Of a stretch of 64,000 nucleotides of DNA, positions 4,001 through 48,509 are shown piece after piece. A model generated the notes under the pieces. That model was given only the letters and a program-made list of their open reading frames with translations. It was not told where the DNA came from and made no database searches. Made by a program: the position numbers and the translations under genes. How positions within the stretch are numbered: position 1 is the first letter of the stretch; each line of letters starts with the position of its first letter. Where the stretch lies: assembly GCF_036365525.1 (NCBI RefSeq), contig NC_090371.1, positions 275,543,929-275,607,928 of the forward strand. Reading direction: 5' to 3'. Source of the DNA: Heterodontus francisci (Eukaryota).

Positions 4001-4433
4001 TAAAGGGATTTGATAAGGTAAATACAGAGAAACTATTTCCTCAGGTGAATGAAGAATGCCAACTCTTTGTGAGACTAACCTAAAAATGTCAACTGCACTG
4101 CACACTCCCTACAGCCCTGTATCTTCCTCCGTTTCCAGTCTTTATCCTTTCTTCCCTTAAAAACTGCCATTTAGGAGTGAAATCAAAAAGCACTTTTTCC
4201 ACACAAAGGGCAGTGGAACCAGAAATCTGGATCTCACTTCCCCCAAAAGGCTGTAGATGCTGAGACATAAAAATTTTGGTGATTGAGATTGATAGATTTT
4301 ATAAAGTAAGGCTATCAAGAGATATGGAACAAAGTTGAGTAAATAGACAAATCATCCAAGATCCAACTAAAAGACAGAACAGACTCGAGGAGCTGAATGG
4401 CCTTCTCCTGTTCCTACATTCTTAAATACTCAC

Positions 4434-4847
4434 CTCAGCACAAGCCTTTAAGCAGGTCTTTTTGAAGCCAAGCAGCTCAGAGACATCTTTCCTGTTGCAG
4501 CCTGTATCACAAGTCCTCTGTATAATGTGTCTCAATACCACAGCAAGCCCAGCTCGACAAAAATTCCCATCCTTTTTCACCAGAGCAGGCAAACGACAAC
4601 TCCGAACCACTGGAGGCAGCTCCTCCTGGGAAAGGATGTTGGTAGGAATATTGGCTGGCATTCCTTTCTTCCAAAAGGGACTGCCATCAGTGTCTTCATT
4701 GGGTACAAGGAACACCTTAATCGATGTGGTGTCACAATAGGACATTAGAAACAAAACAATGGATGTGTGGAGAGGAAAAACCCTGTCTTCTGTGTGGTGG
4801 GATAGCTCGAGGTACAGACAATCATCGTACATGCTGTTGTTCTTCAT
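4434..4847 (-). CDS. GSTCD: GSTCD first coding exon (138 codons); gene continues beyond the left edge
   Basis: Translation LYLE..FPLHTSIVLFLMSYCD..CRLPALV...FCRAGLAVVLRHIIQ...LLGFKKTCLKACAE matches the vertebrate GSTCD N-terminus; phase-0 donor GAG|GTGAGT at 4434/4433; acceptor TTCTATAG| at 4860-4861 just upstream of the ATG; head-to-head with INTS12 as in human. Confidence 0.93.
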
Positions 4848-5832
4848 TTCTGAAATTACCTATAGAAAGTTCAATAGCAGGTCATTAAGAATATAGCTAT
4901 AGTCACTGAAAAATCATTTGCAGTTATCTATTTATAATTTTTTCAAATTATTTTACCAGACTGCCACAAGCAATGGAATAAAAAAATAAAGCATCTGAAA
5001 AGCTTAATGTTTCTGGGTTGTTTTTTGAGATTAAAGGGAACAGGAAGAGTCAAACGAACTTTGGAAATAAACTCTGGTCTACTATTTGTGAAGCGGCTAT
5101 TTTCGAGACAGTGTAAAAGCTGAAATCAAAATAGAATTCCAGGCAAATGAAGCAAGGAGGGAAGATCAAAAATAATTGCCATATATTTTTAATTAAACTG
5201 AGAAATATTCTAGGAGAGATCAAATGGTTCACAAACGTGCATAAAAACATTTGGCATTTCATGGGACTTTTTGCAAAGACAGATGATCAAAAGGGGGCTT
5301 ATGAAAGAATTGGCAGACGGCCCAAGAAAAACCACCAAGACACTGTTTAATATGGAGATCTGTACATGTATGGTAGTGTGTACCAGCAATTTCTGCACAC
5401 AAAGTTCATACTGTGCTGGTGCCCTGAATCATTAAGATCAGGCACCAAAGATCTTAATATATCACTGATTATTCAGATTCTTGAGTCCTGATCATATTAT
5501 GAAAAATTTTATAATCCTGAATATATCTCAAAAGAGGTATGTTAGTTGCAACGAGGTTCTTAAATTTATCACTTGATACTGGGATCTGAATGGTCGGGGC
5601 CCCTCCAAAGGCAGAAACGGAGACAGGAGGCCCTGAAAATACTGATGCTAGGCGGCATGTCAGTTACAGGACGCTGTTCCCAATGCCAGCAATGTTCACC
5701 AGGGAGGGGACCAAAATATTAATAATGCTTACATCTTTATAGTGCCTTTCACAACCTCATTAACACCAAATTACTGGGCTTAACAACTCATGAACTTGTT
5801 TGAAGCTCACCCTAACAGCACATTATTCACTT

Positions 5833-18827: not shown

Positions 18828-20215
18828 TTAGAGTCATAGAGTCGGACAGCATAGAAACAGGCCCTTCGGCCCACTGCGTCCATGCAGACCATAATGCCTA
18901 TCTATACTAATCCCACATGCCTGCATTAATTCCATATCCCTCTGCCTTGCTCATTCAAGTACCTGTCCAGATGCCTCTTAAATGTTGCTACTGTTCCTGC
19001 GTCCGCCACCTCCTCTGGCAGCTCATTCCAGATGTGTGAAAAATTTACCCCTTTGATCCCCTTTCAACCTCCTTCCTCTCACCTTAAATCTATACCCTTT
19101 AGTTTTAGACACCCCTACCATGGGAAACAGACTCTGTCTATCTACCCTATCTATGCCTCTCATAATTTTATATACCTCTATCATGTCCCCTCTCAGCCTC
19201 CTTTGCTCCAGGGAAAATAGACCCAGACTATCCAATCTCTCTTTATGACTCAAGCCCTCCAAACCAGGCAACATCCTGGTGAATCTTTTCTGCACCCTCT
19301 TTAGCTTAATCACATCTTTCCTGTAGTGCGGCAACCAGAACTGCACACAGTACTCCAAGTGCGGCCTAACCAATGTTATGTACAACTGCAACATGACGTC
19401 CCAACTCCTGTACTCAACGCCTCGGCCAATGAAGGCAAGCATGCCATACGCCTTCTTCACCAACCTGTCCACCTGTGTTGCCACTTTCAGGGAACTATGT
19501 ACTTGCACCCCAAAGTCTGTCTGCTCAACAACACTCCCCAGGGCCCTGCCATTCACTGAATATGTCCTGCCCTGGTTTGACTTTCCAAAATGCATCACTT
19601 CACACTTGTCTACGTTAAATTCCATTTGCCACTCCCTTGCCCACTTTCCCAGTTGATCTATATCCTGTTGTAACCTTAGACAACCTTCTTCACTGTCCAC
19701 TATCCCACCAATTTTGGTGCCGTCTGCAAACTTACTAATCATACCCCCTACATTCTCATCCAAGTCATTAATATATATGACAAACAACAGAGGGCCCAGT
19801 GCTGATCCCTGCGGCACACCACTGGTCACCGGCCTCCAATCTGTAAAACAACCCTCCGTTATCACCCTCTGCATCCTATCACCAAGCCAATTTTGTACCC
19901 AATTAGCTAGCTGACCCTGGATCCCATGTGTTCGAACCTTCTGGACCAACCTACCATGTGGGACCTTGTCAAAGGCCTTGCTAAAGTCCATGTAGACATG
20001 TCCACCGCCCTGCCCTTGTCAATCCTCTTGGTCACCTCCTCAAAAAACTCAATCAAATTCGTGAGACATGATTTCCCACGCACAAAGCCATGCTGACTAT
20101 CCCTAATCAGACCTTGCCTTTCCAAATGCATATAAATCCTGTCTCTCAGAATCCCTTCCAATAACTTACCCACCACTGATGTAAGTCTCACGGGCCTGTA
20201 GTTCCCTGGCTTCCC
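18828..20215 (-). mobile_element. Young 5'-truncated CR1 (HER1-like) LINE
   Basis: 322-aa ORF with DFSKAFDKVPH, GVPQGS, KFADGTK, LEYCVQFW; tail GGGCCGAAGGGCCTGTTTCTATGCTGT. Confidence 0.95.
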
Positions 20216-20638
20216 TTTTACTCTTTATACTTGTAGAATTCTTAATTTAAATTATTCTTAATTTAAATTATCAGATAATGAAATTTTTTTTCTTTTTAAG
20301 CCAAAGAACGTGACTTTTGAGTTATCAGGAGCTGACAGTAAAATACAAATAGTTTGTACAGGTCAATCTTCCAAGGAATCTCAGACAAGAATAAGTTTCA
20401 GCTGAAGCAGGGCTAAGGGAACCAGTTGTGTTAAGGAACATCTATGAAGTTATTCCTACAGTCTAGTTCGCAGTTGTATAAATTCTTGCAGCTTAGAAGG
20501 GCGATTTAAAAAAACAACTCCAAGGATGTTATAGAACTTTATTCAGCAAGAAATCAGTCCTTTGTGGCCAAAATCAAAAGATACTCCATTAGGTATTATT
20601 CAGAAAAGCCAAAAGCTCTGATTCTTAAACTTCATTCA

Positions 20639-23058
20639 TTGGATGGGGCAGAATTTGTGAGGAGCATCCAGGAGGGCTTCTTGAAACAGTATGTAGATAG
20701 TCCAACTAGGGATGGGGCCATTCTGGACCTGGTATTGGGGAATGAGCCCGGCCAGGTGGTCGAAGTTTCAGTGGGGGAGCATTTCAGGAGCAGTGACCAT
20801 AATTCCATAAGTTTTAAGGTACTTGTGGATAAGGATAAGAGTAGTCCTCGGGTGAAGGTGCTAAATTGGGGGAAGGCTAATTATAACAATATTAGGCAGG
20901 AACTGAAGAATTTAGATTGGGGGTGGCTGTTTGAGGGTAAATCAACATCTGACATGTGGGAGTCTTTCAAACGTCAGCTGATTAGAATCCAGGACCAGCA
21001 TGTTCCTGTGAGGAAGAAAGACAAGTTTGGCAAGTTTCGGGAAGCTTGGATAACACGGGATATTGTGAGCCTAGTCAAAAAGAAAAAGGAAGCATTTGTA
21101 AGGGCTGGAAGGCTAGGAACAGACGAAGCACTTGAGGAATATAAAGACAGTAGGAAGGAACTTAAGCAAGGAGTTAGGAGGGCTAAAAGGGGTCATGAAA
21201 AGTCATTGGCAAACAGGATTAAGGAAAATCCCAAGGCTTTTTATACATATATAAAGAGCAAGAGGGTAACCAGGGAAAGTGTTGGCCCACTCAAGGACAG
21301 AGAAGGGAATCTATGTGTGGAGCCAGAGGAAATGGGTGGGGTGCTAAATGAGTACTTTGCATCAGTATTCACCAAAGAGAAGGACTTGGTGGATGATGAG
21401 CTGAGGAAAGGTCGTGCAGATAGTTTCAGTCATCTCATTATCAAAAATGAGGAGGTGTTGGGTGTCTTGCAAAGCATTAAGGTAGATAAGTCCCCAGGGC
21501 CTGATGGGATCTACCCTAGAATACTGAGGGAGGCAAGGGAAGAAATTGCTGGGGCCTTGACAGAAATCTTTGCATCCTCATTGGCTACAGGTGAGGTCCC
21601 AGAGGACTGGAGAATAGCCAGTGTTGTTCCTTTTGTTTAAGAAGGGTGGCAAGTATAATCCAGGACATTATAGGCCGGTGAGCCTTACGTCAGTGGTAGG
21701 GAAACTATTAGAGAGGATTATTCAGGACAGGATTTACTCCCATTTGGAAACAAACAAACTTATTAGCGAGAGACAGCATGGTTTTGTGAAGGGGAGGTCG
21801 TGTCTTATTAATTTGATTGAGTTTTTTGAGGAAGTGACGAAGATGATTGATGAAGGAAGGGCAGTGGATGTTATCTATATGGACTTCAGTAAAGCCTTTG
21901 ACAAGGTCCCGCATGGCAGACTGGTACAAAAGTTGAAGTCACACGGGATCAGAGGTGAGCTGGCAAGATGGATACAGAACTGGCTCGGTCATAGAAGACA
22001 GAGGGTATCAGTGGATGGGTGTTTTTCTGAATGGAGGGATGTGACTAGTGGTGTTCCGCAGGGATCAGTGCTGGGACCTTTGCTGTTTGTAGTATACATA
22101 AATGATTTGGAGGAAAATGTAGCTGGTCTGATTAGTAAGTTTGCGGACGACACAAAGGTTGGTGGAATTGCGGATAATGATGAGGATTGTCAGAGGATAC
22201 AGCAGGATATAGATCGGTTGGAGACTTCGGCAGAGAAATGGCAGATGGAGTTTAATCCGGACAAATGTGAGGTAATGCATTTTGGTAGGTCTAATGCAGG
22301 TGAGAGGTATGCAGTAAATGGCAGAACCCTTAGGAGTATTGACAGGCAGAGAGATCTGGGCGTACAGGTCCACAGGTCACTGAAAGTGGCAACGCATGTG
22401 AATAAGGTAGTCAAGAAGGCATACGGCATGCTTGCCTTCATCGGTTGGGGCATAGAGTATAAAAATTGGCAAGTCATGTTGCAGCTGTACAGAACCTTAG
22501 TTTGGTCAGACTTAGAATATTGCGTGCAATTCTGGTCGCCACACTACCTGAAGGACGTGGAGGCTTTGGAGAGGGTACAGAGGAGGTTTACCAGGATGTT
22601 GCCTGGTCTGGAGGGCATTAGCTATGAGGAGAGGTTGGAAAAACTCGGATTGTTTTCACTGGAACGACGGAGGTGGAGGGGCGACATGATAGAGGTTTAC
22701 AAAGTTATGAGCGGCATGGACAGAGTGGATAGTCAGAAGCTTTTTCCCAGGGTGGAAGAGTCAGTTATTAGGAGACATAGGTTTAAGGTGAGAGGGGCAA
22801 AGTTTAGAGGGGATGTGCGAGGCAAGTTTTTTTTTTTTACAGAGGGTGGTGAGTGCCTGGAACTTGCTGCCAGGGGAGGTGGTGGAAGCAGATACGATAG
22901 TGACGTTTAAGAGACACCTTGACAAATACATGAATAGGAAGGGGATAGAGGGATATGGGCTCTGGAAGTGCAGAAGGTGTTAGTTTAGGCAGGCATCAAG
23001 ACCTGCGCAGGCTTGGAGGGCCGAATGGCCTGTTCCTGTGCTGTACTGTTCTTTGTTC
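20639..23058 (+). mobile_element. Young CR1 LINE, near-intact ORF2 (end of APE domain plus RT)
   Basis: Two overlapping ORFs (358 and 429 aa) joined by a frameshift in a T-run at ~21630; PTRDGAILDLVL, SDHN, GVPQGSVLGP, FADD; tail GGGCCGAATGGCCTGTTCCTGTGCTGTACTGTTCTTTGTTC. Confidence 0.96.
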
Positions 23059-25210: not shown

Positions 25211-25352
25211 ACCAATTTAATGTAAAAGCCATGAGAAGAGTTGAGTGAAATTTAAGACGTTCTAATTATAAAGTGACAACTGCAGGTCTATGTATTTTCA
25301 TTCCACTCAATACTTTTTATAGGTTCAGGCAATTTTATTTTTTGTTTTGCAG

Positions 25353-25913
25353 ACATCCTCATCTGCTTCTGTGAATTCCTCCAATTCTAATACCTCCTCC
25401 TCTTCTGTTAGTGGTCTGACAGGATGGGCTGCCTTTGGAGCTAAAACATCTACTGCAGCACCATCCACAACTAAACTGGGATCATCTGTGCAAAGCACCA
25501 GTGGGAAGCCTACTGCATCTTCCACGAGTCAGAAAACAGTGGGTTTGTCTGGACTAGCAACTTCCAAAGCAGGGCTGGGGTCAAAATTGACCACAGGCAT
25601 TAACTCCGGCACTGGGCCCATAAAGCCGCCCCCTCCCCTAACTCTGGGGAAACCAGGCCTTAACCGATCATCCAGCAACGACAATGTTAGCAAAGTAGGA
25701 TTAACTGGGCCAGGCAGCAGTGGCAGCCAGTCCAACAGTGGGAATGGAGGGGGCACCTCTACTGGTACAGGTGGTAACAATGGTGCCAAAATGCCCACTG
25801 AAGTTGGAAATCCTTCTGTCAAGTTGCCTACATCTCAAGAGTCACAGCTTAATGCTATGAAACGGCTCCAGATGGTAAAGAAGAAAGCAGCACAGAAGAA
25901 ACTTAAAAAGTAA
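25353..25913 (+). CDS. INTS12: INTS12 last coding exon (Ser/Gly-rich C-terminus); full CDS is 452 aa
   Basis: [14 protein letters not shown]...[10 protein letters not shown]...[28 protein letters not shown]-stop, the conserved INTS12 C-terminus; TTTTGCAG| acceptor. Confidence 0.96.
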
Positions 25914-36411: not shown

Positions 36412-37665
36412 CTCAAGCAGCTGTTTGTTTCTCATTAAAGTACAATTATCTTAGTGATGTGTCTGTCATTAAGCAATATCCTCCACCTCCAGGTTGGTTG
36501 TGACTAAAAAACAATTTCTTTACAATCCCAGTTATTCCCTATTTCCCATCACAAATTCCAGACTCTGTTTTGCAATCAGGTTTAAATTTGATTCTTCCTC
36601 CATTTGCTGTCAAACTGCCTCTGTAATGGGACATATTCTGGCTCCATTTTAAAGTCAGTACCGTACAAACATTTCTGTTACCGATGTCACGGGTGAGAGT
36701 GCGGACACTGCCCATTTAACTCGCCCTCTTGTAGGCACCTTCCTTTACAGTCCGACTGCCTCTAAAACGGTTCCAGAGCTTAAATCTCCAACCCACGATG
36801 CTGAGGAAGAGGTGACAGCGAGTCGTGAAAAGATCAATATAGACAAGAGTCTTAGAACTGCTGTTTTTCAGTCATTTTCCTTTTGGTTCAATACCATAGT
36901 ACGTCCGCCTTGGTTGCAGATACTATTAATGGATCTTTCCCACCTCGGCAGCTCATCAATTAACTATGCACTTGCCAGCACTGTTACCCGCTCAATTGGG
37001 GCCACACGTAATACTAGGTCACATCCACAATCAACAGTGATCATGGCACAAAAGTTGTCTTTCCTTCTGTTTCAGAAGAGTAGGAGTATTAAACACAGAT
37101 GGTTTGTAAATGCTTTCTACCGATATTTTTATTCAAGTTTTCTTTTTTTCCGAAATTAGCACAGATGAAGAAAATAGGGCCGATATTGACCAAAGTGAGA
37201 TTATGTCTACTGAATCAGCAGTTTGAAATTCAATGGTAAAAATTGACATATTGCCCTTAGATGATACTGGAGCATTTTAGCAGGATTATAAATGAGTTGT
37301 TGGTATTCAATTCAGAATACCTTAACGCATGCCGTGGCTTGATAAGGCTCATTAAACAACAGTTGCCTAAAGGGTTTGGTTTAGACTCAATGCCTATGAC
37401 CTTGATTGCATAAGTCAAATGCGACTGGAAGAATTCACATACTTTGTAGATCATGCACTTCTCAAGGTGATCATGCAGAGAATTCTTAGGGATCAGAGGC
37501 ACCACCACTATGTGCTGAAAGTATTTGGTGGTCAAAAGTACTTTTTGCACTAATGCTGAAACACTAATTTGCACTAATGATACCTAAATAACAACAGTGA
37601 CTTGAAAAAGTACTTCATTGGCTGTGAAAAACTCAAAGAATGTGAAAAGCACTAAATAAATGCAA

Positions 37666-38005
37666 ATTAGATTAGAGATACAGCACTGAAACAGGCCCTT
37701 CGGCCCACCGAGTCTGTGCCGAACATCAACCACCCATTTATACTAATCCTATATTCCTACCAAACATCCCCACCTGTCCCGATAGTTCCCTACCACCTAC
37801 CTATACTAGTGACAATTTATAATGGCCAATTTACCTGTCAACCTGCAAGTCTTTTGGCTTGTGGGAGGAAACCGGAGCACCCGGAGAAAACCCACGCAGA
37901 CACAGGGAGAACTTGCAAACTCCACACAGGCAGCACCCAGAATCGAACCCGGGTCCCTGGAGCTGTGAGGCTGCAGTGCTAACCACTGCGCCACTGTGCT
38001 GCCCC
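37666..38005 (-). mobile_element. HE1-type V-SINE, full length and young
   Basis: tRNA head GTGGCGCAGTGGTTAGC...GGTTCGATTC; V-domain GTTCTCCCTGTGTCTGCGTGGGTTTTCTCCGGGTGCTCCGGTTTCCTCCCAC; CR1-derived tail GGGCCGAAGGGCCTGTTTCAGTGCTGTATCTCTAA. Confidence 0.85.
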
Positions 38006-38419
38006 ATTTGAAATTGTTATGATGGTGCTTCTATATTTTTTGTTGAGTAATTTTTTTGAGGACTCATATTTAAATTGTGGAGATGGATTCATTGGAAGGC
38101 TGAAGATTTCATAGAAGTTAGATTTGCTTTGTTGTCGACAGTTTGAGGGGAGACGGTGGCATAGTGGTAATGTTATTAGACTAGTAATCTAGAGCCCCAG
38201 GCTTATCCTCTGGGGATATGGGCTCGTATCCCACCATAGCAGATGGTGAAATTTGAATTCAATTAATAAATCTGGAATTAAAAGCTAGTCCACTGGTTCA
38301 CTAATAATGTCCTTTAGAGAAGGAAATCTGCTGTTCTTACCTGGTCTGGCCTACATGGGCAATAAATGCTGGCCTAGCAGTGACACCCACATCCCACAAT
38401 AAAAAATAAAACCGTCATT

Positions 38420-39303
38420 GGAAAGACACTGAGATGTTGTTTAAAAACAACCGTGCTGAAAATCATATGATTTAAGCTCAATAAACAACAGAAACCTTGG
38501 TGACCTGGAGAAGATGTTTACAGAGAAACCATATGTCAAGGTTTGTGGAGGTCAAGAGGTTGACTTTCTGTTTTGGGGTTTGGATTGTTTTCAGTTCAGT
38601 TGGGGTGTGGACTGTTTTGAAGACAGTTACTGTTTGGCCTGACAAGGAAAAAGAAATCCCCCAGCTCATCTTTCCTGCACATCTCTAAAGAACCCTGAGA
38701 GGTCCAGTGTGTCAGTTCATCTCTTTTCTCCTGTCGCAGAGAAACGCTGCATATCGAATGTGTGGGAACTAAAACCCCTAATGCTGCATTTCTTCTGAGA
38801 CACTGGAAAAACCTGCCAGATAAATCCTTGATGCCTCCTGAATGAATTGCTCCAGAAAAGGATCCCAGTGACCCGTCGCCATATACCCGGATGCCAGACA
38901 AAAAAAGGGACATCTGACATCCTTCCATAGCTTCTCTTTTTTCTTCAAGAATTAGCAAGTATTTGGCCAAAGGTTCTTTTGTCTTTTCTTTGAAACTGAC
39001 CTCTGCAGAGAGAATTTCTGTATTTTCTTTCAGTGTGTATGTGTATGTGGAGAATTTTAAAAGGGAACTTTTTTCATATTTCAATCTGTGTGTTAACGGT
39101 TTGCTTCATTAGTGGATAAGTCTTGTTTGATAATAAACTGATAATTTTATTGTTTATTAAAGAAACCTGGTTGGTGTATTTTATTCTGGGATAAAGAGTA
39201 AATAATTGACTGAATCGGTAACTGGGTAAACATTTTAAAAATATATGTTATGACCTGCAGAGACTAGAAAAGGCAATGCACTCCTCCCACCTCGCTCATA
39301 CCA
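38420..39303 (+). mobile_element. Probable solo LTR; similar LTR-like stretches at ~15474-15900(-), 35200-35520, 56050-56940
   Basis: TG-rich tract followed by AATAAA, AAGAAACCTG motif and CTCCTCCCACCTCGCTCATACCA end, the same architecture as the other LTRs in the window. Confidence 0.45.
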
Positions 39304-39823
39304 AAATTCGTTCTTGTGCCATTTTTGCTAGTAACTGCAGTTTGGTATCAGTCCAAAAGTTTAAGAGAGGTCACTAGCATTGCTGCATTAACCTATGCAA
39401 TATAAGGCAAATACAATATGCATATAGTTGTGTGTCAATGAGGCTTTATGTATTGATGCTCCCCTGGTGGCTTCACGAAAATCATTATTCTGATCTGTGA
39501 AATTAAAACACGCTTATAGGGCTGAATTTTAGTTCCAGGGTCCCGATCCCGAAGCCGAGATGAATTTTGTAAGAACCTTGAAGAGATTTTGGAGGAGGTG
39601 GCCAATTAAGAGGCCGCATCTGAGAGCCCTGTCCAATTAAGGATGGCAGGAGGACGCCGCAGCCATGAGATCCAATGAAAACGCCTGAGGCTCTGGGTGG
39701 CGGGCAGCCCACCTGGAGAGGTGGGTACAGCTGATGTAGCTGGGGGACTGTGAGGGCGCCTTAAGATGGAGGCACCCTCTAACGACTTGTAAATGATACA
39801 AATTATAGCGTGGCCACAGCTGT

Positions 39824-40557
39824 CTTAATGGAGATGACAAAGTGGCCGCCCACTTTGAGAAACTGGTGTGCGTTGAGTGCCACAATCCTGCACTGGTCTA
39901 GTGTGCCACATCTGCGAAGATAACATCCACCATTCCCAGGAGCATGCGGTACTTGTGTGGGTGCCTGGCATCCTCGATGATCGGTATGATGTTTGTTCTC
40001 TTCTTGGCCACATTGATGAGATCACGGCCAGACCGGTGAGAGAATTCAACTGCGTAAACCAAGCCATCAGGTCCCACAATATCCGACACATGGGAAACAG
40101 TGGTGCCGGACGCTGCTCCCAAATACAGCACTTTGGCTCCGGGCTTGATGTGAATCTGGTCGATGCCACCGAGGATCGCAGCCGCGAGTTTCGACCTGAA
40201 AGGGTTCCACGCTCTGTACTCAATCTTCGTCTCTGCTTCCTCCACCCCAATTCTCTTCTCTCCATACACGGACTCTCCTGGAACCATGTTCCTCGTCACC
40301 AAAGCATCCTCCTTCCCATAGCATATAAACACACCTTCATGCCTGTGTGGCTCCACTGTCACCTTTACTCCACCTCGGAATCCTCCTCTTCCTCCATGAC
40401 CTCCTCTTCCTCGCCCCCCACCCCTGCCTCAGCCACCTCCTCGTCCTCCGGGAGATCTGAAACCACCACCTCGATCTCCTCGGTCACCGAAACCTCCACG
40501 GCCTCCGAAACCACCCCTTCCACCCCCACCACCACGTGGAGAGAACCCTGGTTTCAT
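39824..40557 (-). pseudogene. FBL: Processed, 3'-truncated fibrillarin pseudogene
   Basis: Intronless MKPGFSPRGGG-GAR [19 protein letters not shown]...[11 protein letters not shown]...[20 protein letters not shown]...DVIFADVA; in-frame TGA at codon 43 (40431-40429); 1-nt frameshift near 39900, then DQCRIVALNAHQFLKVGGHFVISIK; homology stops at 39824. Confidence 0.95.
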
Positions 40558-40981
40558 GCTGTTCTGATCCTCCCCCAGTCCCCGCCGCGTTAGGCCATCA
40601 TTGCAGTGGGGGAAACCCCCTCCACAAGATGACCTGTGCCATGGCTATGGCCTTCACAGCCCAGCAGATCCAGGCTGGGCTGCTCTGCAGGATATATCTC
40701 TGCCCTTGCGCCCCCACCCCCCCCCCACACCCACAGTCCCCACCCCCAGCCTGCCACTGAGAGGCAGCCACCATTCAATCTATGGGCTCCAGGCACATTG
40801 GGGCTTGTCTGCCATCAGTAAATCCAGGCGGCTTGTGAAGCATACCCTCAATTGGCACCTTAATTGGCCACTTGTCACCCTTCTAGAAGCTGCCTTGCTG
40901 AAAATAGGCCAGAGAGGGGAACATGCTGGCAGACTGGCTGGTGGCGACAAATTGTTGGCACGCCTGATGCTGAACCCGTCT

Positions 40982-41207
40982 TGTTAATCTGTCAATTGTA
41001 TATCAATTGTTTGATTATATGCAGGTGGAGGGTGTTATTTGGGATCATACTTGAGCACTTATAAGCAGACACTTATTGAGACTGGTGTAGGGTTTTGAGT
41101 GAGGAGCTACATGTTTGTAATTCTTTTATTCTGCACAATAAATGTGAAACTGATTAAAGATAGGCTCCAGCATTATCATTCCATAACCAGCTTTCTGGAT
41201 GAGGACA
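40982..41207 (+). mobile_element. Probable short solo LTR
   Basis: TGT...ACA ends, TATA-like CTTATAAG, AATAAA at ~41137; AT-rich block interrupting GC-rich element sequence; degenerate flanks CGTCT/CACCT. Confidence 0.45.
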
Positions 41208-42249
41208 CACCTTGGGATAAAAATTTTGCCCATAATGTCAGTGAAGAGAAACTTTATCCGCAAACATTTTTTTAAGTTCGTTTACAGACATTGTTGGCAA
41301 GGCCAACATTTATTGTCCATTCCTATTTGTCCTTGAATGTATGTATAGTGAGTTGTTTGATTCAACTGAGGGGCTTGCTTCCTAAAGGACGAAAGTGAAC
41401 CAGTTGGGTTTTTATGATAATCTGTTAGGTTCATGGCTTTTGACTGATACTAGTTTTTTAAATTCCAGATTTATTTAATGAATGGAATTCAAATTCACAA
41501 GCTGCCATGCTGACCTTTTAACTCAAAGACTCATGGATTTTTAGTCCAGACTTCCAGATTACTAGTCCAGTAACATAACCACTATATTACCATATCCCCT
41601 ATCTGTACACATCGGTAGCAGTTTTACAAGATAAACATTTAAATAAGCACAAGAGCCCTTTAAACCATTCCTAGATGGCTGTCCTTCTGACAAGTACCAC
41701 CATCTTACACTCATTCTTAATATCAGCATTAGAAGTTGCAGACATTTGTCTCTATAACTTCTAGGAATGTGTGATGTTAACCTTTTGAAATTCCTTGTCA
41801 GATGATCCATAACTTGTCCTTTGTTCATGTTGACTAAATACAATTATCTCCGTAAGAATGCTTATTCATTAAATTTTCTGTCATACTTAAGCTGATTACA
41901 AATTGCTTACAGGTGCTTACCTTAATTAATCATAAGAAGAACAGTGTACCATTGAGTCCTAACATGGCGCAGCTAAGCTACATGCTATGTGCAATTAAGA
42001 AAAACTTTGGATTTATATAGCGCCTTTCGTGACCTCAGATCATTCCAATGCGCTTCAAAACCAGTGAAGTACTTTTGAAGTGTTATCACTGCTGTAACAG
42101 AGGAAAATGAGCAGCCAATTTGCAGACAGCAAGGTCCCACAAACAGCAATGTGATAATGACCAGATAATCTCTTTTGGTAATGTTAGTTGAGGGATAAAT
42201 ATTGGCCAGGACACTGGGGAGTTGATACCCTGCTGGATGTCGACTTCAG

Positions 42250-45760: not shown

Positions 45761-46824
45761 ATGAGTGACACATTCACCTACATCCTGATGTGCATATCAC
45801 CCCAAACTGCTCGCTCTGCCTTCTCAAGCCTACTCCAGCACCTCAGTTCTCACACCAACTTACCTTGCACGTACACCCATCCCTCTCAGCAGCAATTCAT
45901 GTCTTAGTGTTCATTACGAGTGAAAAGGCCACTTACCAGCCAGAAACCAAAAATGGGCAAGAACAGAAAGTGGTGGAAAAAAACTAATATTCACCTGGCT
46001 CAAAATTAAAACAGAAACTAATCTAGCATGTGTGACACACCCATGTGCATACCCTTGTCCAACTAGAAATCTTTACTCCTCCTCTTCGTAGCACTTCTAT
46101 GTGGTGCAACCACTGTGGCTTCAGCAGAGGTAGGGGGAGATTGCTCACAGCCCTGCTCTGACTGCTGAGATGCTCGGTCAATGGCCTCTGGATTTTGAAG
46201 CCCGTGAAGGCCCCAGCAAAGACTTCTGCCACTGCACCTGTGCAGGGGCAAACTTGGCCATTGGCACATGAGGCAGCACGTGGGGCACTGACTGAGGTGG
46301 TGGGGGGCAATGGATGAGAAGTGGAAGTACTTTGAGTGGAGTGCCCACTTGCATGTCCCCTTTCACCACCATCCCTCTCATGGCCCAGCCACACTTCCCT
46401 GCCAGAAATGAGTTGGAGAGCACTTAGATACACATCAGTGGGGTGATGAATGGCCAAGGCTAGGTTATCATGCATCCTATTTAAGGTGGTGTTCATAGTG
46501 TGAAAGCCATTGGTGAAGGCCTGCATGAACTCATTTGATTGCCCCATTTAATGCCCCGTGTAGGTGGCCAATCTTTTCATGGACGAAGGCATCATTGTAA
46601 AGGCCTGCAACATCATGTCAGTCAAGCTTCAGACAGACTGCTCCCATCTCTCTGCAAGTGTGCACAATACAGCTGGAACCAGCTCATCACACATTTTATG
46701 CTGCTACTCCAGAAGTATACTCAACGTCAACAGGAAAGGTACAGCATCTGCATCCAGCTGAGCAGAGTTTGGAGAATTCTGTGGCTTCTGACCCAGACAC
46801 TCCACTGCTGTCCCTGTGATCATG

Positions 46825-47125
46825 AGGTCTCTTAATTGCCACATCTGTGCAGTCGATGCTGCCCTGCATCTGAGGGAAACCAGCCAGAGCCGCAAACCTG
46901 AGTGCCCGCTCATTCTGACTGGTGACATTGCAGGGAAAGTTTGAATAATTACCTGCTCTGATAAACAAGCCCTGAGTCATCTGTCTTATGCATTTGTGTG
47001 TGGCCGACTGTGAGATCCTGCAAATGTCTCCAGCAGATCCTTGCAAGGATTCAGAGGCAAAGAAGTTGAGGACAGTGGTAACTTTGACAGTCATTAGTAA
47101 AATGTGACCACCAGGTCCAGGTGGC
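46825..47125 (-). mobile_element. Harbinger (HARBI1-like) DDE transposase fragment
   Basis: VKVTTVLNFFASESLQGSAGDICRISQSATHKCIRQMT...FAALAGFPQMQGSIDCTDVAIKRP matches the HARBI1-family HTH and GFP.V.GAIDCTH motif; truncated after the first catalytic Asp. Confidence 0.85.
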
Positions 47126-48509
47126 GGCAGGTCTGTTGGGAGCAGGCTGCTGCTGCTAATGCTGGTCATCTTGATCCTCATCTGAGGTCCAAAGTAACAC
47201 AGCGTTAGTGGCACCCTTGCTGAACTGATAGATCAGAGCTCCAAAGTGCAGATCAGACATACAAACCACCAAAGTGGAGATGACACCTACAAAGTTGAAA
47301 AAGCAACCACTCAACACAAGCAATCTGAACAAAGCCTTTCACACAAGCAGGTAAGCAAGCAGCTCCGAGGTGTCAGTACTTATTGTCATATGACCCTATC
47401 GTGTCTTCAGCCTTTGTTGTGCTCTTGCATTGTTTTCACTGGCGAGTTCCTGGAAGTGTGGGAAACCCATGAACCCACAGTTAAATTGAAAAAGCCATGT
47501 TAATATCACTATAATTGACTGATTAACATATTGACATTGACAACCTGCCTCTCCTGAGGGGATTGCTCGTACGCAGTCTAATGCCCTGCAATGAAATGGG
47601 GAAGTCAGTGGGTTGAAGCCTGCTTCCCGACGGTATTTTTCCAGAACTTAACCCCCAGCTGTACCCAAAACCCACACACTCACACACGTTAACCCCCCCA
47701 CCCCACCCCCATCTGCTAACTTTAGCAGTTAAATTTGTAGAAAACTGCACAGCTCTACAACATACCAAAAAAAAACCTTTGCCTGAATTTCTCATTCAGC
47801 TACAATATAGACTATCAGATTCCAAAGACTACAGTCATCATTAACTATCAGTCAAAGGAAGTACTGAGTGACAGTGAGAGTGCTTTGGAGCTGCAATGCA
47901 CTCAGTTTGTAACCCATTAAGAGAGAAGACATTCATCAGCCTAACATAACATTGCTTTCTGGCCATATTGTGCAGGCTAATTTTTCTACCAAGCCATCAA
48001 TTCATTGGCTAGTCCCAGAAATCCTTGCCTATTACAGCATGGTGATCCATCACTTTAAATACTTTTCTGTTTCCACTATGCTGTGAAATTGTGGAATTGC
48101 AGCCTTTCTTTTTCACACTGTCTATGCCCAATCAGATTGTGAAATCATGTTATCAAAAACCTAATGAAGACTGCAATCCAAAATCATTCCATCATTAACT
48201 ATACAAAATGTCATTGTTCTGTGCAGTGGAGCATGCATCTCTCTTTCTGCCAGCACAGCACTCTCCCTCAAAGCTACTGTAAGTAATCATGGGTGCTTAA
48301 AGTAATGTCATTGCACATTCAATTTGATTGAGATTTATGTTCACTATAACAAGTTTGGGAAGTGGGATTTTCCTTCAATTTCCAGTGCAGTGACATTGAG
48401 TTTTGTTCAATTTATGTGCTTGCACTGGCAAGATGATGCATTCTTATTTTCCCTTTCAAAATATACCTTATTCAATAAGCAAAGCACAAATGAAGTCCGA
48501 GGCCATTGG

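What the first reader, a model, noticed from the sequence alone, without database searches (positions are those of the whole stretch)
39516..41234. Spliced fibrillarin cDNA packaged inside a Harbinger-like TIR transposon (Pack-TIR candidate carrying an RNA-derived gene)
Seen: an intronless FBL copy (short 5' UTR plus ~245 codons) sits in the middle of a 1.7-kb unit with imperfect TIRs (GGGCTGAATTTT / GGGCAAAATTTT), inverted subterminal CCAATTAAGG motifs and a perfect 3-bp ATA duplication outside the TIRs. Known: PIF/Harbinger elements make 3-bp TSDs, and described Pack-TIRs/Pack-MULEs mostly carry genomic (intron-containing) fragments. Inference: either a retrocopy landed in a resident MITE, or a DNA transposon captured an mRNA-derived sequence and could move it. 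The second case would be an unusual RNA-to-DNA-transposon gene-capture route in a shark.
Basis: partly seen in the sequence, partly recalled or inferred. Interest (0 to 1): 0.75.

Follow-up and report, generated by a model that had tools for sequence, protein, structure and literature searches.

The report
Young fibrillarin retrocopy inside old MITE
A broken, intron-less copy of most of the fibrillarin gene sits, apparently as a single copy, inside a small DNA transposon of a cartilaginous fish, where it likely landed long after the transposon had stopped moving, so this is probably an ordinary nested insertion whose one oddity is that it has no poly(A) tail and stops exactly at a likely exon boundary.

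Summary
The structure is real, but mobilisation is not supported. In same-sample DNA contigs the FBL part and both junctions lie at single-copy depth, the arms are repeated, and one contig aligns to both arms while skipping FBL. The insert differs from the sample's FBL transcript at 7 of 597 letters (no transversions); the left arm differs from most relatives at 12 or more of 305 (7 transversions). So a young cDNA most likely entered an older, resident MITE. Precedents exist: single-copy Pack-TIRs mostly form after transposition, and bat Helitrons carry and amplify retrogenes. The unexplained feature: the copy keeps its start codon, has no poly(A) and ends exactly at a likely exon-7 donor (about 1% by chance), which hints at a splicing-intermediate or chimeric RNA template. 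No assembly or orthologue could be searched.

The parts
39516..39518 (+). left 3-bp target-site duplication (ATA)
   Evidence: sequence
39519..39542 (+). left terminal inverted repeat, degenerate (17 of 24 letters match the right end)
   Evidence: repeat depth begins in bin 39501-39567
39519..39823 (.). left arm of a non-autonomous TIR element (305 bp), with CCAATTAAG motifs at 39602 and 39633
   Evidence: summed contig depth 48-221 times the flank; one contig aligns up to 39821, two letters from the FBL end (table 5)
39824..40557 (-). spliced FBL copy, start codon to ...ISIK (likely exons 1-7); nonsense codon 40431-40429; 1-nt frameshift at about 39900; no poly(A)
   Evidence: 7 other letters and 12 gap letters against the same-sample transcript-like contig over 39907-40503
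40558..40592 (-). probable FBL 5' UTR (boundary inferred, not shown)
   Evidence: 3 CpG in 35 nt against 0 in the next 64 nt, Fisher p=0.04 on a boundary chosen after looking
40593..40981 (.). right arm of the TIR element (about 389 bp), with the inverted CCAATTAAG motif at 40854-40871
   Evidence: depth 5-26 times the flank from 40640 on, about 2 times in 40573-40639; one contig aligns 39785-39821, 40657-40693 and from 40751
40982..41207 (.). nested very high-copy repeat of about 220 bp, solo-LTR-like (begins TG, holds AATAAA); class inferred; right end between 41199 and 41207
   Evidence: depth 4,600-11,900 times the flank; 113 loose ends before 40982 and 201 behind 41199 with mixed flanks; longest pieces carry 29-32 other letters in about 180
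41208..41231 (-). right terminal inverted repeat
41232..41234 (+). right 3-bp target-site duplication (ATA)
   Evidence: sequence

Best explanation
A spliced, now broken FBL copy sits inside a repeated TIR element, and it likely entered that element as a cDNA long after the element had inserted here, with no sign that the composite moved afterwards. Order of events (inferred): (1) a ~720-bp non-autonomous, likely PIF/Harbinger-type element inserted at ATA and decayed; (2) a ~226-bp solo-LTR-like repeat inserted in its right arm; (3) much later a host reverse transcriptase (likely a LINE enzyme) used a DNA end in the middle of the element, at 39823 on the + strand, to copy an FBL RNA from the end of exon 7 through the start codon into the 5' UTR, and the gap was closed; (4) the promoterless copy picked up a stop, a frameshift and CpG changes. 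For the 3' end I commit to an RNA that itself ended at the exon-7 donor (a splicing intermediate or a transcript cut there), about 45% within this model; exon 7 spliced onto element sequence about 25%; internal priming or later deletion falling on the boundary by chance about 30%. Shown: the layers, the divergences, single-copy depth in one sample. Inferred: the order, the enzyme, the template.
For: Single copy: flank depth 11.4; contigs across the 3' junction (39586-39853) 11.7, FBL (39824-40241) 12.6, the 5' junction (40487-40684) 10.9 and the right arm (40655-41014) 10.6, all with 0 other letters; at all 7 FBL positions listed, total DNA depth is 11.7-12.6 and no other letter is read (X1; X3 is the same sample and nearly the same numbers). 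Empty relative: pieces with the same depth (10.9 in X1, 9.69 in X3), read as one contig, align 39785-39821, 40657-40693 and from 40751; another joins 39764 to 40743. Age: insert versus the sample's FBL transcript-like contig 7 of 597 (95% CI 0.5-2.4%), all transitions, 5 of 7 at CpG; the left arm differs from the majority of relatives at 12 of the 16 rows shown in 305 bp, 7 of them transversions (Fisher p=0.012 for all changes, 0.0005 for transversions). A sister arm within 2.4% would leave 238 bp free of shared 32-letter runs in about 1 of 20,000 simulations, yet the arm contigs run unbroken. Exon boundary: of 161 fetched proteins 155 matched the ISIK pattern; 154 go on ANC(I/V)D and one sawshark model (P0123) leaves exactly after ISIK; two ray isoforms part just before GFSPR; recalled vertebrate exon sizes fall on plausible junction letters and one, 40240, is where a DNA contig ends (40241). 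Literature: most single-copy Pack-TIRs arose after transposition (PMC8277862 section 7 and passages); retrocopies are common in cartilaginous fishes (14,081 counted; bioRxiv 10.64898/2026.06.26.734816 passage).
Against: The parent gene itself is hardly visible in these DNA contigs: at full depth it would lift the 39824-40241 contig to about 19.8, and 12.6 was seen, so this data set can under-show a locus with FBL sequence, and human-like contigs are filtered; a sister copy in such a region is not excluded. No contig break is seen at two of the recalled exon junctions (40069, 39936). Majority differences in the arm may reflect a minor subfamily rather than age. Only one sample holds the locus and it may be the source of the window; 'RNA' for X5 is a guess. 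Tables were cut (84 letter rows, 69 joints, 1,139 loose ends, 11,918 pieces not shown), so the empty junction was never read ('between: not known'). No convincing insertion TSD was found for the cDNA. A single cut-and-paste move would leave no sister copy.
Confidence: 0.8

Rival explanations
1. Capture and mobilisation: an active Harbinger-type element took up the FBL cDNA elsewhere and then transposed here (or from here) as one unit.
For: One TIR pair and one intact 3-bp duplication enclose everything. A transposase-like remnant lies 5 kb away, so the superfamily was present (leads only). Helitrons have done this with retrogenes.
Against: Single-copy depth at both junctions; arms older than the insert; degenerate TIRs (10 of 12); a diverged nested repeat 24 bp from the right end.
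Confidence: 0.07
2. Chimeric-RNA targeting (a variant of the best model): the parent's exon 7 was spliced onto a copy of this MITE family in or behind the FBL gene; the MITE tail of that RNA annealed to a break in the resident element and templated the repair.
For: The copy ends exactly at a likely donor, about 0.6-0.8% by chance for 8 recalled junctions; element homology reaches within 2 letters of the FBL end; it would explain why the cDNA is in a MITE at all; one sawshark model joins exon 7 to other sequence.
Against: No listed piece of the transcript-like run crosses 39824/39823, and the acceptor in the empty element could not be read; the arm contig is unbroken, though the parent locus is under-covered. 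No AATAAA or ATTAAA follows in the arm.
Confidence: 0.2
3. Internal priming or later deletion (a variant of the best model): a full mRNA was primed by microhomology at the start of exon 8, as in tailless retropseudogenes, or the 3' part was deleted later; the exon boundary is coincidence.
For: The flank is compatible with the back-translated next residues at 6 of 8 letters with a one-letter shift; 5'-complete, 3'-cut retrocopies made by internal priming are described in therians (PMC5322556 passages).
Against: 15% of 682 arm positions score as well; the described class has 8-35 nt duplications and A-rich priming sites, neither seen here.
Confidence: 0.24
4. The two arms are unrelated repeats and the TIR/TSD is a chance pairing around a retrocopy.
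For: The short TIR+TSD signature is common in this window (22 pairs); the right TIR's own repeat depth cannot be separated from the nested repeat.
Against: Contigs from other loci align to both arms across the FBL gap; repeat depth starts at the left TIR; inverted subterminal motifs.
Confidence: 0.06
5. Genomic capture of FBL exons 1-7 with introns, followed by intron loss through cDNA recombination; or template switching by an LTR element's reverse transcriptase.
For: Splicing of a captured exon 7 onto the arm would give the exact end; an earlier, unchecked AI note (e1-8025847) describes an LTR-flanked retrocopy in another shark genome.
Against: Needs two rare events and a multi-kb capture; the LTR-like repeat here is diverged and lies about 390 bp of MITE sequence away from the cDNA.
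Confidence: 0.05

Closest known systems
Single-copy Pack-TIRs of animals (Tan et al. 2021, PMC8277862; abstract, section 7 and passages read)
   Same: Host sequence inside the middle of an old non-autonomous TIR element, single copy, added after the element's insertion.
   Different: The filler is a spliced cDNA; that survey discarded intronless captures by design, and most of its cases are hAT or Tc/Mariner ('Harbinger' and 'shark' occur 0 times in its main text).
Retrogenes nested in bat Helitrons (Thomas et al. 2014, PMC4224331; passages read)
   Same: An mRNA reverse-transcribed into a resident DNA transposon; empty exemplars exist.
   Different: Those have poly(A), LINE-1 type duplications and 5' truncation and were amplified (118 copies); this one keeps the 5' end, lacks the 3' end and tail, sits in a TIR element and shows no amplification.
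Tailless retropseudogenes (Noll et al. 2015, PMC5322556; passages read)
   Same: 5'-complete, 3'-truncated, no oligo(A).
   Different: Described in therians with L1, 8-35 nt duplications and A-rich internal priming; here no such duplication, and the end is at a likely splice donor.
PIF/Harbinger non-autonomous elements (features from PMC9179366 passages)
   Same: Short TIRs and a 3-bp duplication; repeated family.
   Different: No transposase or Myb-like gene in the unit and no autonomous partner matched; TIR degenerate.

Membership tests
PIF/Harbinger MITE | 3-bp target-site duplication | tested here: met
   ATA on both sides; 3 bp is the rule for the superfamily
PIF/Harbinger MITE | terminal inverted repeats of about 25-50 bp | tested here: inconclusive
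   17 of 24 letters match, weaker beyond; the signature alone is near chance
PIF/Harbinger MITE | dispersed non-coding family with both arms in one element | tested here: met
   arms at 5-221 times flank depth; contigs aligning to both arms
PIF/Harbinger MITE | [quoted passage not shown] | not testable with these tools
   no assembly held; the remnant at 46-47 kb shows no match to the unit
processed pseudogene (retrocopy) | introns removed, colinear with mRNA | tested here: met
   colinear with the transcript-like contig over 597 nt; junction positions and recalled exon sizes
processed pseudogene (retrocopy) | 3' poly(A) and flanking duplication of canonical target-primed insertion | tested here: not met
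   longest A run in the following arm is 4, no AATAAA; best direct repeats are 5-6 letters, about 10% by chance
Pack-TIR (Tan et al. 2021) | non-TE host sequence between the two halves of one TIR element | tested here: met
Pack-TIR (Tan et al. 2021) | DNA-level capture (intronless copies of multi-exon genes excluded) | tested here: not met
   the filler is spliced; exclusion rule
multicopy (mobilised) Pack-TIR | several loci with distinct flanks and duplications | tested here: not met
   single-copy depth at both junctions in one sample, with the coverage caveat
multicopy (mobilised) Pack-TIR | no element at the orthologous site of relatives | not testable with these tools
   no DNA holder from another organism was listed
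tailless retropseudogene | 5'-complete, 3'-truncated, no oligo(A) | tested here: met
   (completeness of the 5' UTR not shown)
tailless retropseudogene | 8-35 nt duplication and A-rich internal priming site | tested here: not met

The most novel reading that the evidence does not exclude
An RNA-derived Pack-TIR: a break in a Harbinger-type MITE was filled by reverse transcription of an FBL RNA caught at, or spliced through, its exon-7 donor (a splicing intermediate, or exon 7 joined to MITE sequence that guided it to a homologous copy). This would be an RNA-templated gap-filling route into TIR transposons that Pack-TIR surveys filter out, and a germline fossil of a splicing intermediate. It becomes a class only if other cDNA inserts in shark MITEs also end on splice donors.
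Probability: 0.25. Interest if true: 0.5.

Novelty: new member of a known kind. Interest (0 to 1): 0.24.

Why it matters
As a dead single-copy retrocopy nested in an old MITE it matters little: in a genome this rich in repeats, retrocopies often land in one. It would matter if the exact stop at the exon-7 donor is mechanistic, because it would show how reverse transcriptases of a CR1-rich genome copy host RNAs without a poly(A) tail, and that TIR elements can be filled from RNA. That is directly testable across shark assemblies. Mobilisation by a cut-and-paste element, the surprising case, has little support.

Tried and rejected
No own genome was held, so junction BLAST and a family consensus could not be done. 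Window self-BLAST found no second copy of the arms. A CCAATTAAG-pair pattern found 0 loci in viral contigs and 2 in metagenome contigs; both were bacterial-looking chance matches with only 12-17 nt alike. Looking for empty-element copies through spurious translations failed: no candidate for the left-arm frame; 2 hits for the right-arm frame, both low-complexity tandem-repeat proteins. Rfam: 1 match at E 0.96, below its threshold. No RNA holder is on record. The RNA-guess runs give no cover of 39836-39902 or 40573-40639, and X9 (organism B) shows almost no FBL cover; holes prove nothing because of the filter. Candidate insertion duplications: ACAGC directly before the ATG and directly after the last AAG (a 5-letter match somewhere in the 99-nt range has p about 0.10), TGGCC at 40593 with a 7-letter offset, GCTGTG at 40655 with a 3-letter offset; none accepted. 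Exon-8 microhomology is not above background. Earlier findings: nothing by place, sequence or words in 6 look-ups; one search gave 8 notes, 7 on archaea and irrelevant. Paper searches (listings only unless named elsewhere) showed no title on a retrocopy moved by a TIR transposon in a shark and none that gave the FBL exon map; the library lacks most subscription papers. PMC13317346 (passages) has no mention of intronless capture or Harbinger. No supplements were read; those of PMC8277862 and of the bioRxiv preprint (closed) could list related cases.

Full report
Observation. The window shows ATA directly outside GGGCTGAATTTT at 39519 and outside its imperfect inverse ending at 41231. The ends match at 10 of 12 and 17 of 24 letters. 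On its own this is weak: 22 position pairs 1.5-2 kb apart in this window pass a 10-of-12 test with a 3-bp direct flank and 2 pass the stricter one. Between the ends, on the minus strand, lies a fibrillarin copy from ATG 40557 to the codons for ISIK ending at 39824 (Pfam 3e-73). Its best single-domain matches are ray and shark fibrillarins (95-98%). It has a TGA at 40431-40429 and a frame change near 39900, lacks the C-terminal ~55 residues and has no poly(A) or AATAAA behind it.

Data used. No assembly was held. The run search listed 20 runs; 4 held 85% of the words, all one sample and study; 11 held 12-18%. I laid 4 of the 20: two DNA runs and one RNA-guess run of that sample, and one RNA-guess run of a second organism. 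All are contigs; the two DNA runs give nearly the same numbers and count as one observation; the sample may be the source of the window; output tables were cut.

Anatomy. The left flank has depth 11.4. Depth rises in the bin holding the left TIR and stays 48-221 times the flank through the left arm; the right arm is 5-26 times from 40640. Pieces with one shared depth, read as one contig from another locus, align to 39785-39821, 40657-40693 and from 40751, and a second contig joins 39764 to 40743: relatives carry both arms and skip FBL, though what lies between is 'not known'. From 40982 to about 41200 depth is 4,600-11,900 times the flank, with 113 and 201 loose ends of mixed sequence at the two edges: a separate, solo-LTR-like repeat nested in the right arm, 24-32 bp from the right end. 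Without the two inserts the element is about 718 bp. A PIF/Harbinger assignment rests on the 3-bp duplication and short TIRs and remains likely, not shown.

Copy number. Contigs across the 3' junction, the FBL part, the 5' junction and the right arm have depth 11.7, 12.6, 10.9 and 10.6 with no other letters; at the 7 FBL positions listed only this depth is present. That is 0.93-1.11 times the flank. Against this: the parent gene should add depth to shared exon words (about 19.8 expected at full depth, 12.6 seen), so the data can under-show an FBL-bearing locus, and human-like contigs are filtered.

Relative age. A transcript-like contig of the same sample (depth 686) covers 39907-40503 with 7 other letters and 12 gap letters and has the intact codon at 40431, so it is taken as the parent mRNA. 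All 7 are transitions, 5 at CpG; 1.2%, CI 0.5-2.4%. In the left arm the window differs from the majority of relatives at 12 of the 16 rows shown, 7 of them transversions, in 305 bp (p=0.012 and 0.0005); 84 rows were not shown, so this is a floor, but subfamily structure could inflate it. The arm contigs run unbroken for 238 and 327 bp, which a sister within 2.4% would allow about once in 20,000 trials. The nested repeat's longest relatives differ at 29-32 of about 180 letters. The insert is therefore the youngest layer.

The odd end. The copy keeps the start codon and probably ~35 nt of UTR (CpG contrast; boundary uncertain between 40557 and 40656) and stops at AAG. That this is an exon end rests on recalled vertebrate gene structure and on one sawshark model that leaves exactly after ISIK while 154 other matched proteins continue ANC(I/V)D. 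Recalled exon sizes also give a junction at 40240, where a DNA contig ends after two shared letters; no break is seen at two other predicted junctions. With 8 junctions in 1.0-1.3 kb an exact hit has a 0.6-0.8% chance, noticed after the fact. The + strand here is first-strand cDNA, so a 3' end at 39823 inside the element would have primed the copy (inference). No duplication around the cDNA is convincing and exon-8 microhomology is at background.

Mechanism. Most likely (0.8) a resident, decayed MITE received a cDNA and the composite stayed put. Within that, an RNA ending at the exon-7 donor is my pick, with a chimeric exon 7-MITE RNA and chance internal priming or deletion as live variants. 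Capture followed by transposition is at about 0.07: one cut-and-paste move would leave no sister, so it is not excluded.

Comparison. Tan et al. 2021 (PMC8277862; abstract, section 7 and passages) found that only four of their Pack-TIRs (1.4%) were multicopy, that single-copy ones mostly arose after transposition, and they removed intronless captures. Thomas et al. 2014 (PMC4224331; passages) report four mRNAs retroposed into Helitrons and amplified to 118 copies. Noll et al. 2015 (PMC5322556; passages) describe tailless, 5'-complete retrocopies. A 2026 preprint (passages) counts 14,081 retrocopies in cartilaginous fishes. The case works like a post-insertion filler in a TIR element and is a retrocopy; it fails the tests for a DNA-level or multicopy Pack-TIR and for canonical tailed or therian tailless insertions. 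My searches (listings) showed no paper on this locus or on retrocopies ending at splice donors inside MITEs, which is weak evidence of absence.

Verdict. Real structure, headline interpretation not supported; a new member of a known kind (retrocopy nested in a DNA transposon) with one unexplained feature. Interest 0.24; 0.5 if the splice-donor end proves to be a recurring RNA-templated route.

Noticed in passing
window 46023-47232 (-): Decayed transposase-like frames; feature search returns HARBI1 / DDE_Tnp_4 / Plant_tran clusters at 0.92-0.95, Pfam finds nothing. Probably an old Harbinger remnant; no match to the MITE.
   Followed up: partly
window 40982-41207: A ~220-bp solo-LTR-like repeat at thousands-fold depth in DNA contigs and well covered in both RNA-guess runs; family not identified.
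   Followed up: partly
window 19023-22910: Two reverse-transcriptase-like (CR1-type, label recalled) copies face each other as a 73-75% inverted pair; the + copy has long open frames of 376 and 430 aa.
   Followed up: no
window 4422-4859 (-) and 25323-25913 (+): Frames that I recall as exons of GSTCD and INTS12, head to head; the feature search gave only GST-like leads at 0.81-0.84 for the first and Pfam nothing for either.
   Followed up: partly
window 37166-38947: The only other pair passing the stricter inverted-end plus 3-bp flank filter; may be chance.
   Followed up: no
protein P0123: A sawshark fibrillarin model replaces the conserved C-terminus after ISIK with 21 unrelated residues: an alternative last exon or an annotation error.
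   Followed up: partly
window 39824-40503: The parent FBL gene is nearly invisible in the sample's DNA contigs although its transcript-like contig is abundant: under-coverage, filtering or assembly simplification.
   Followed up: partly
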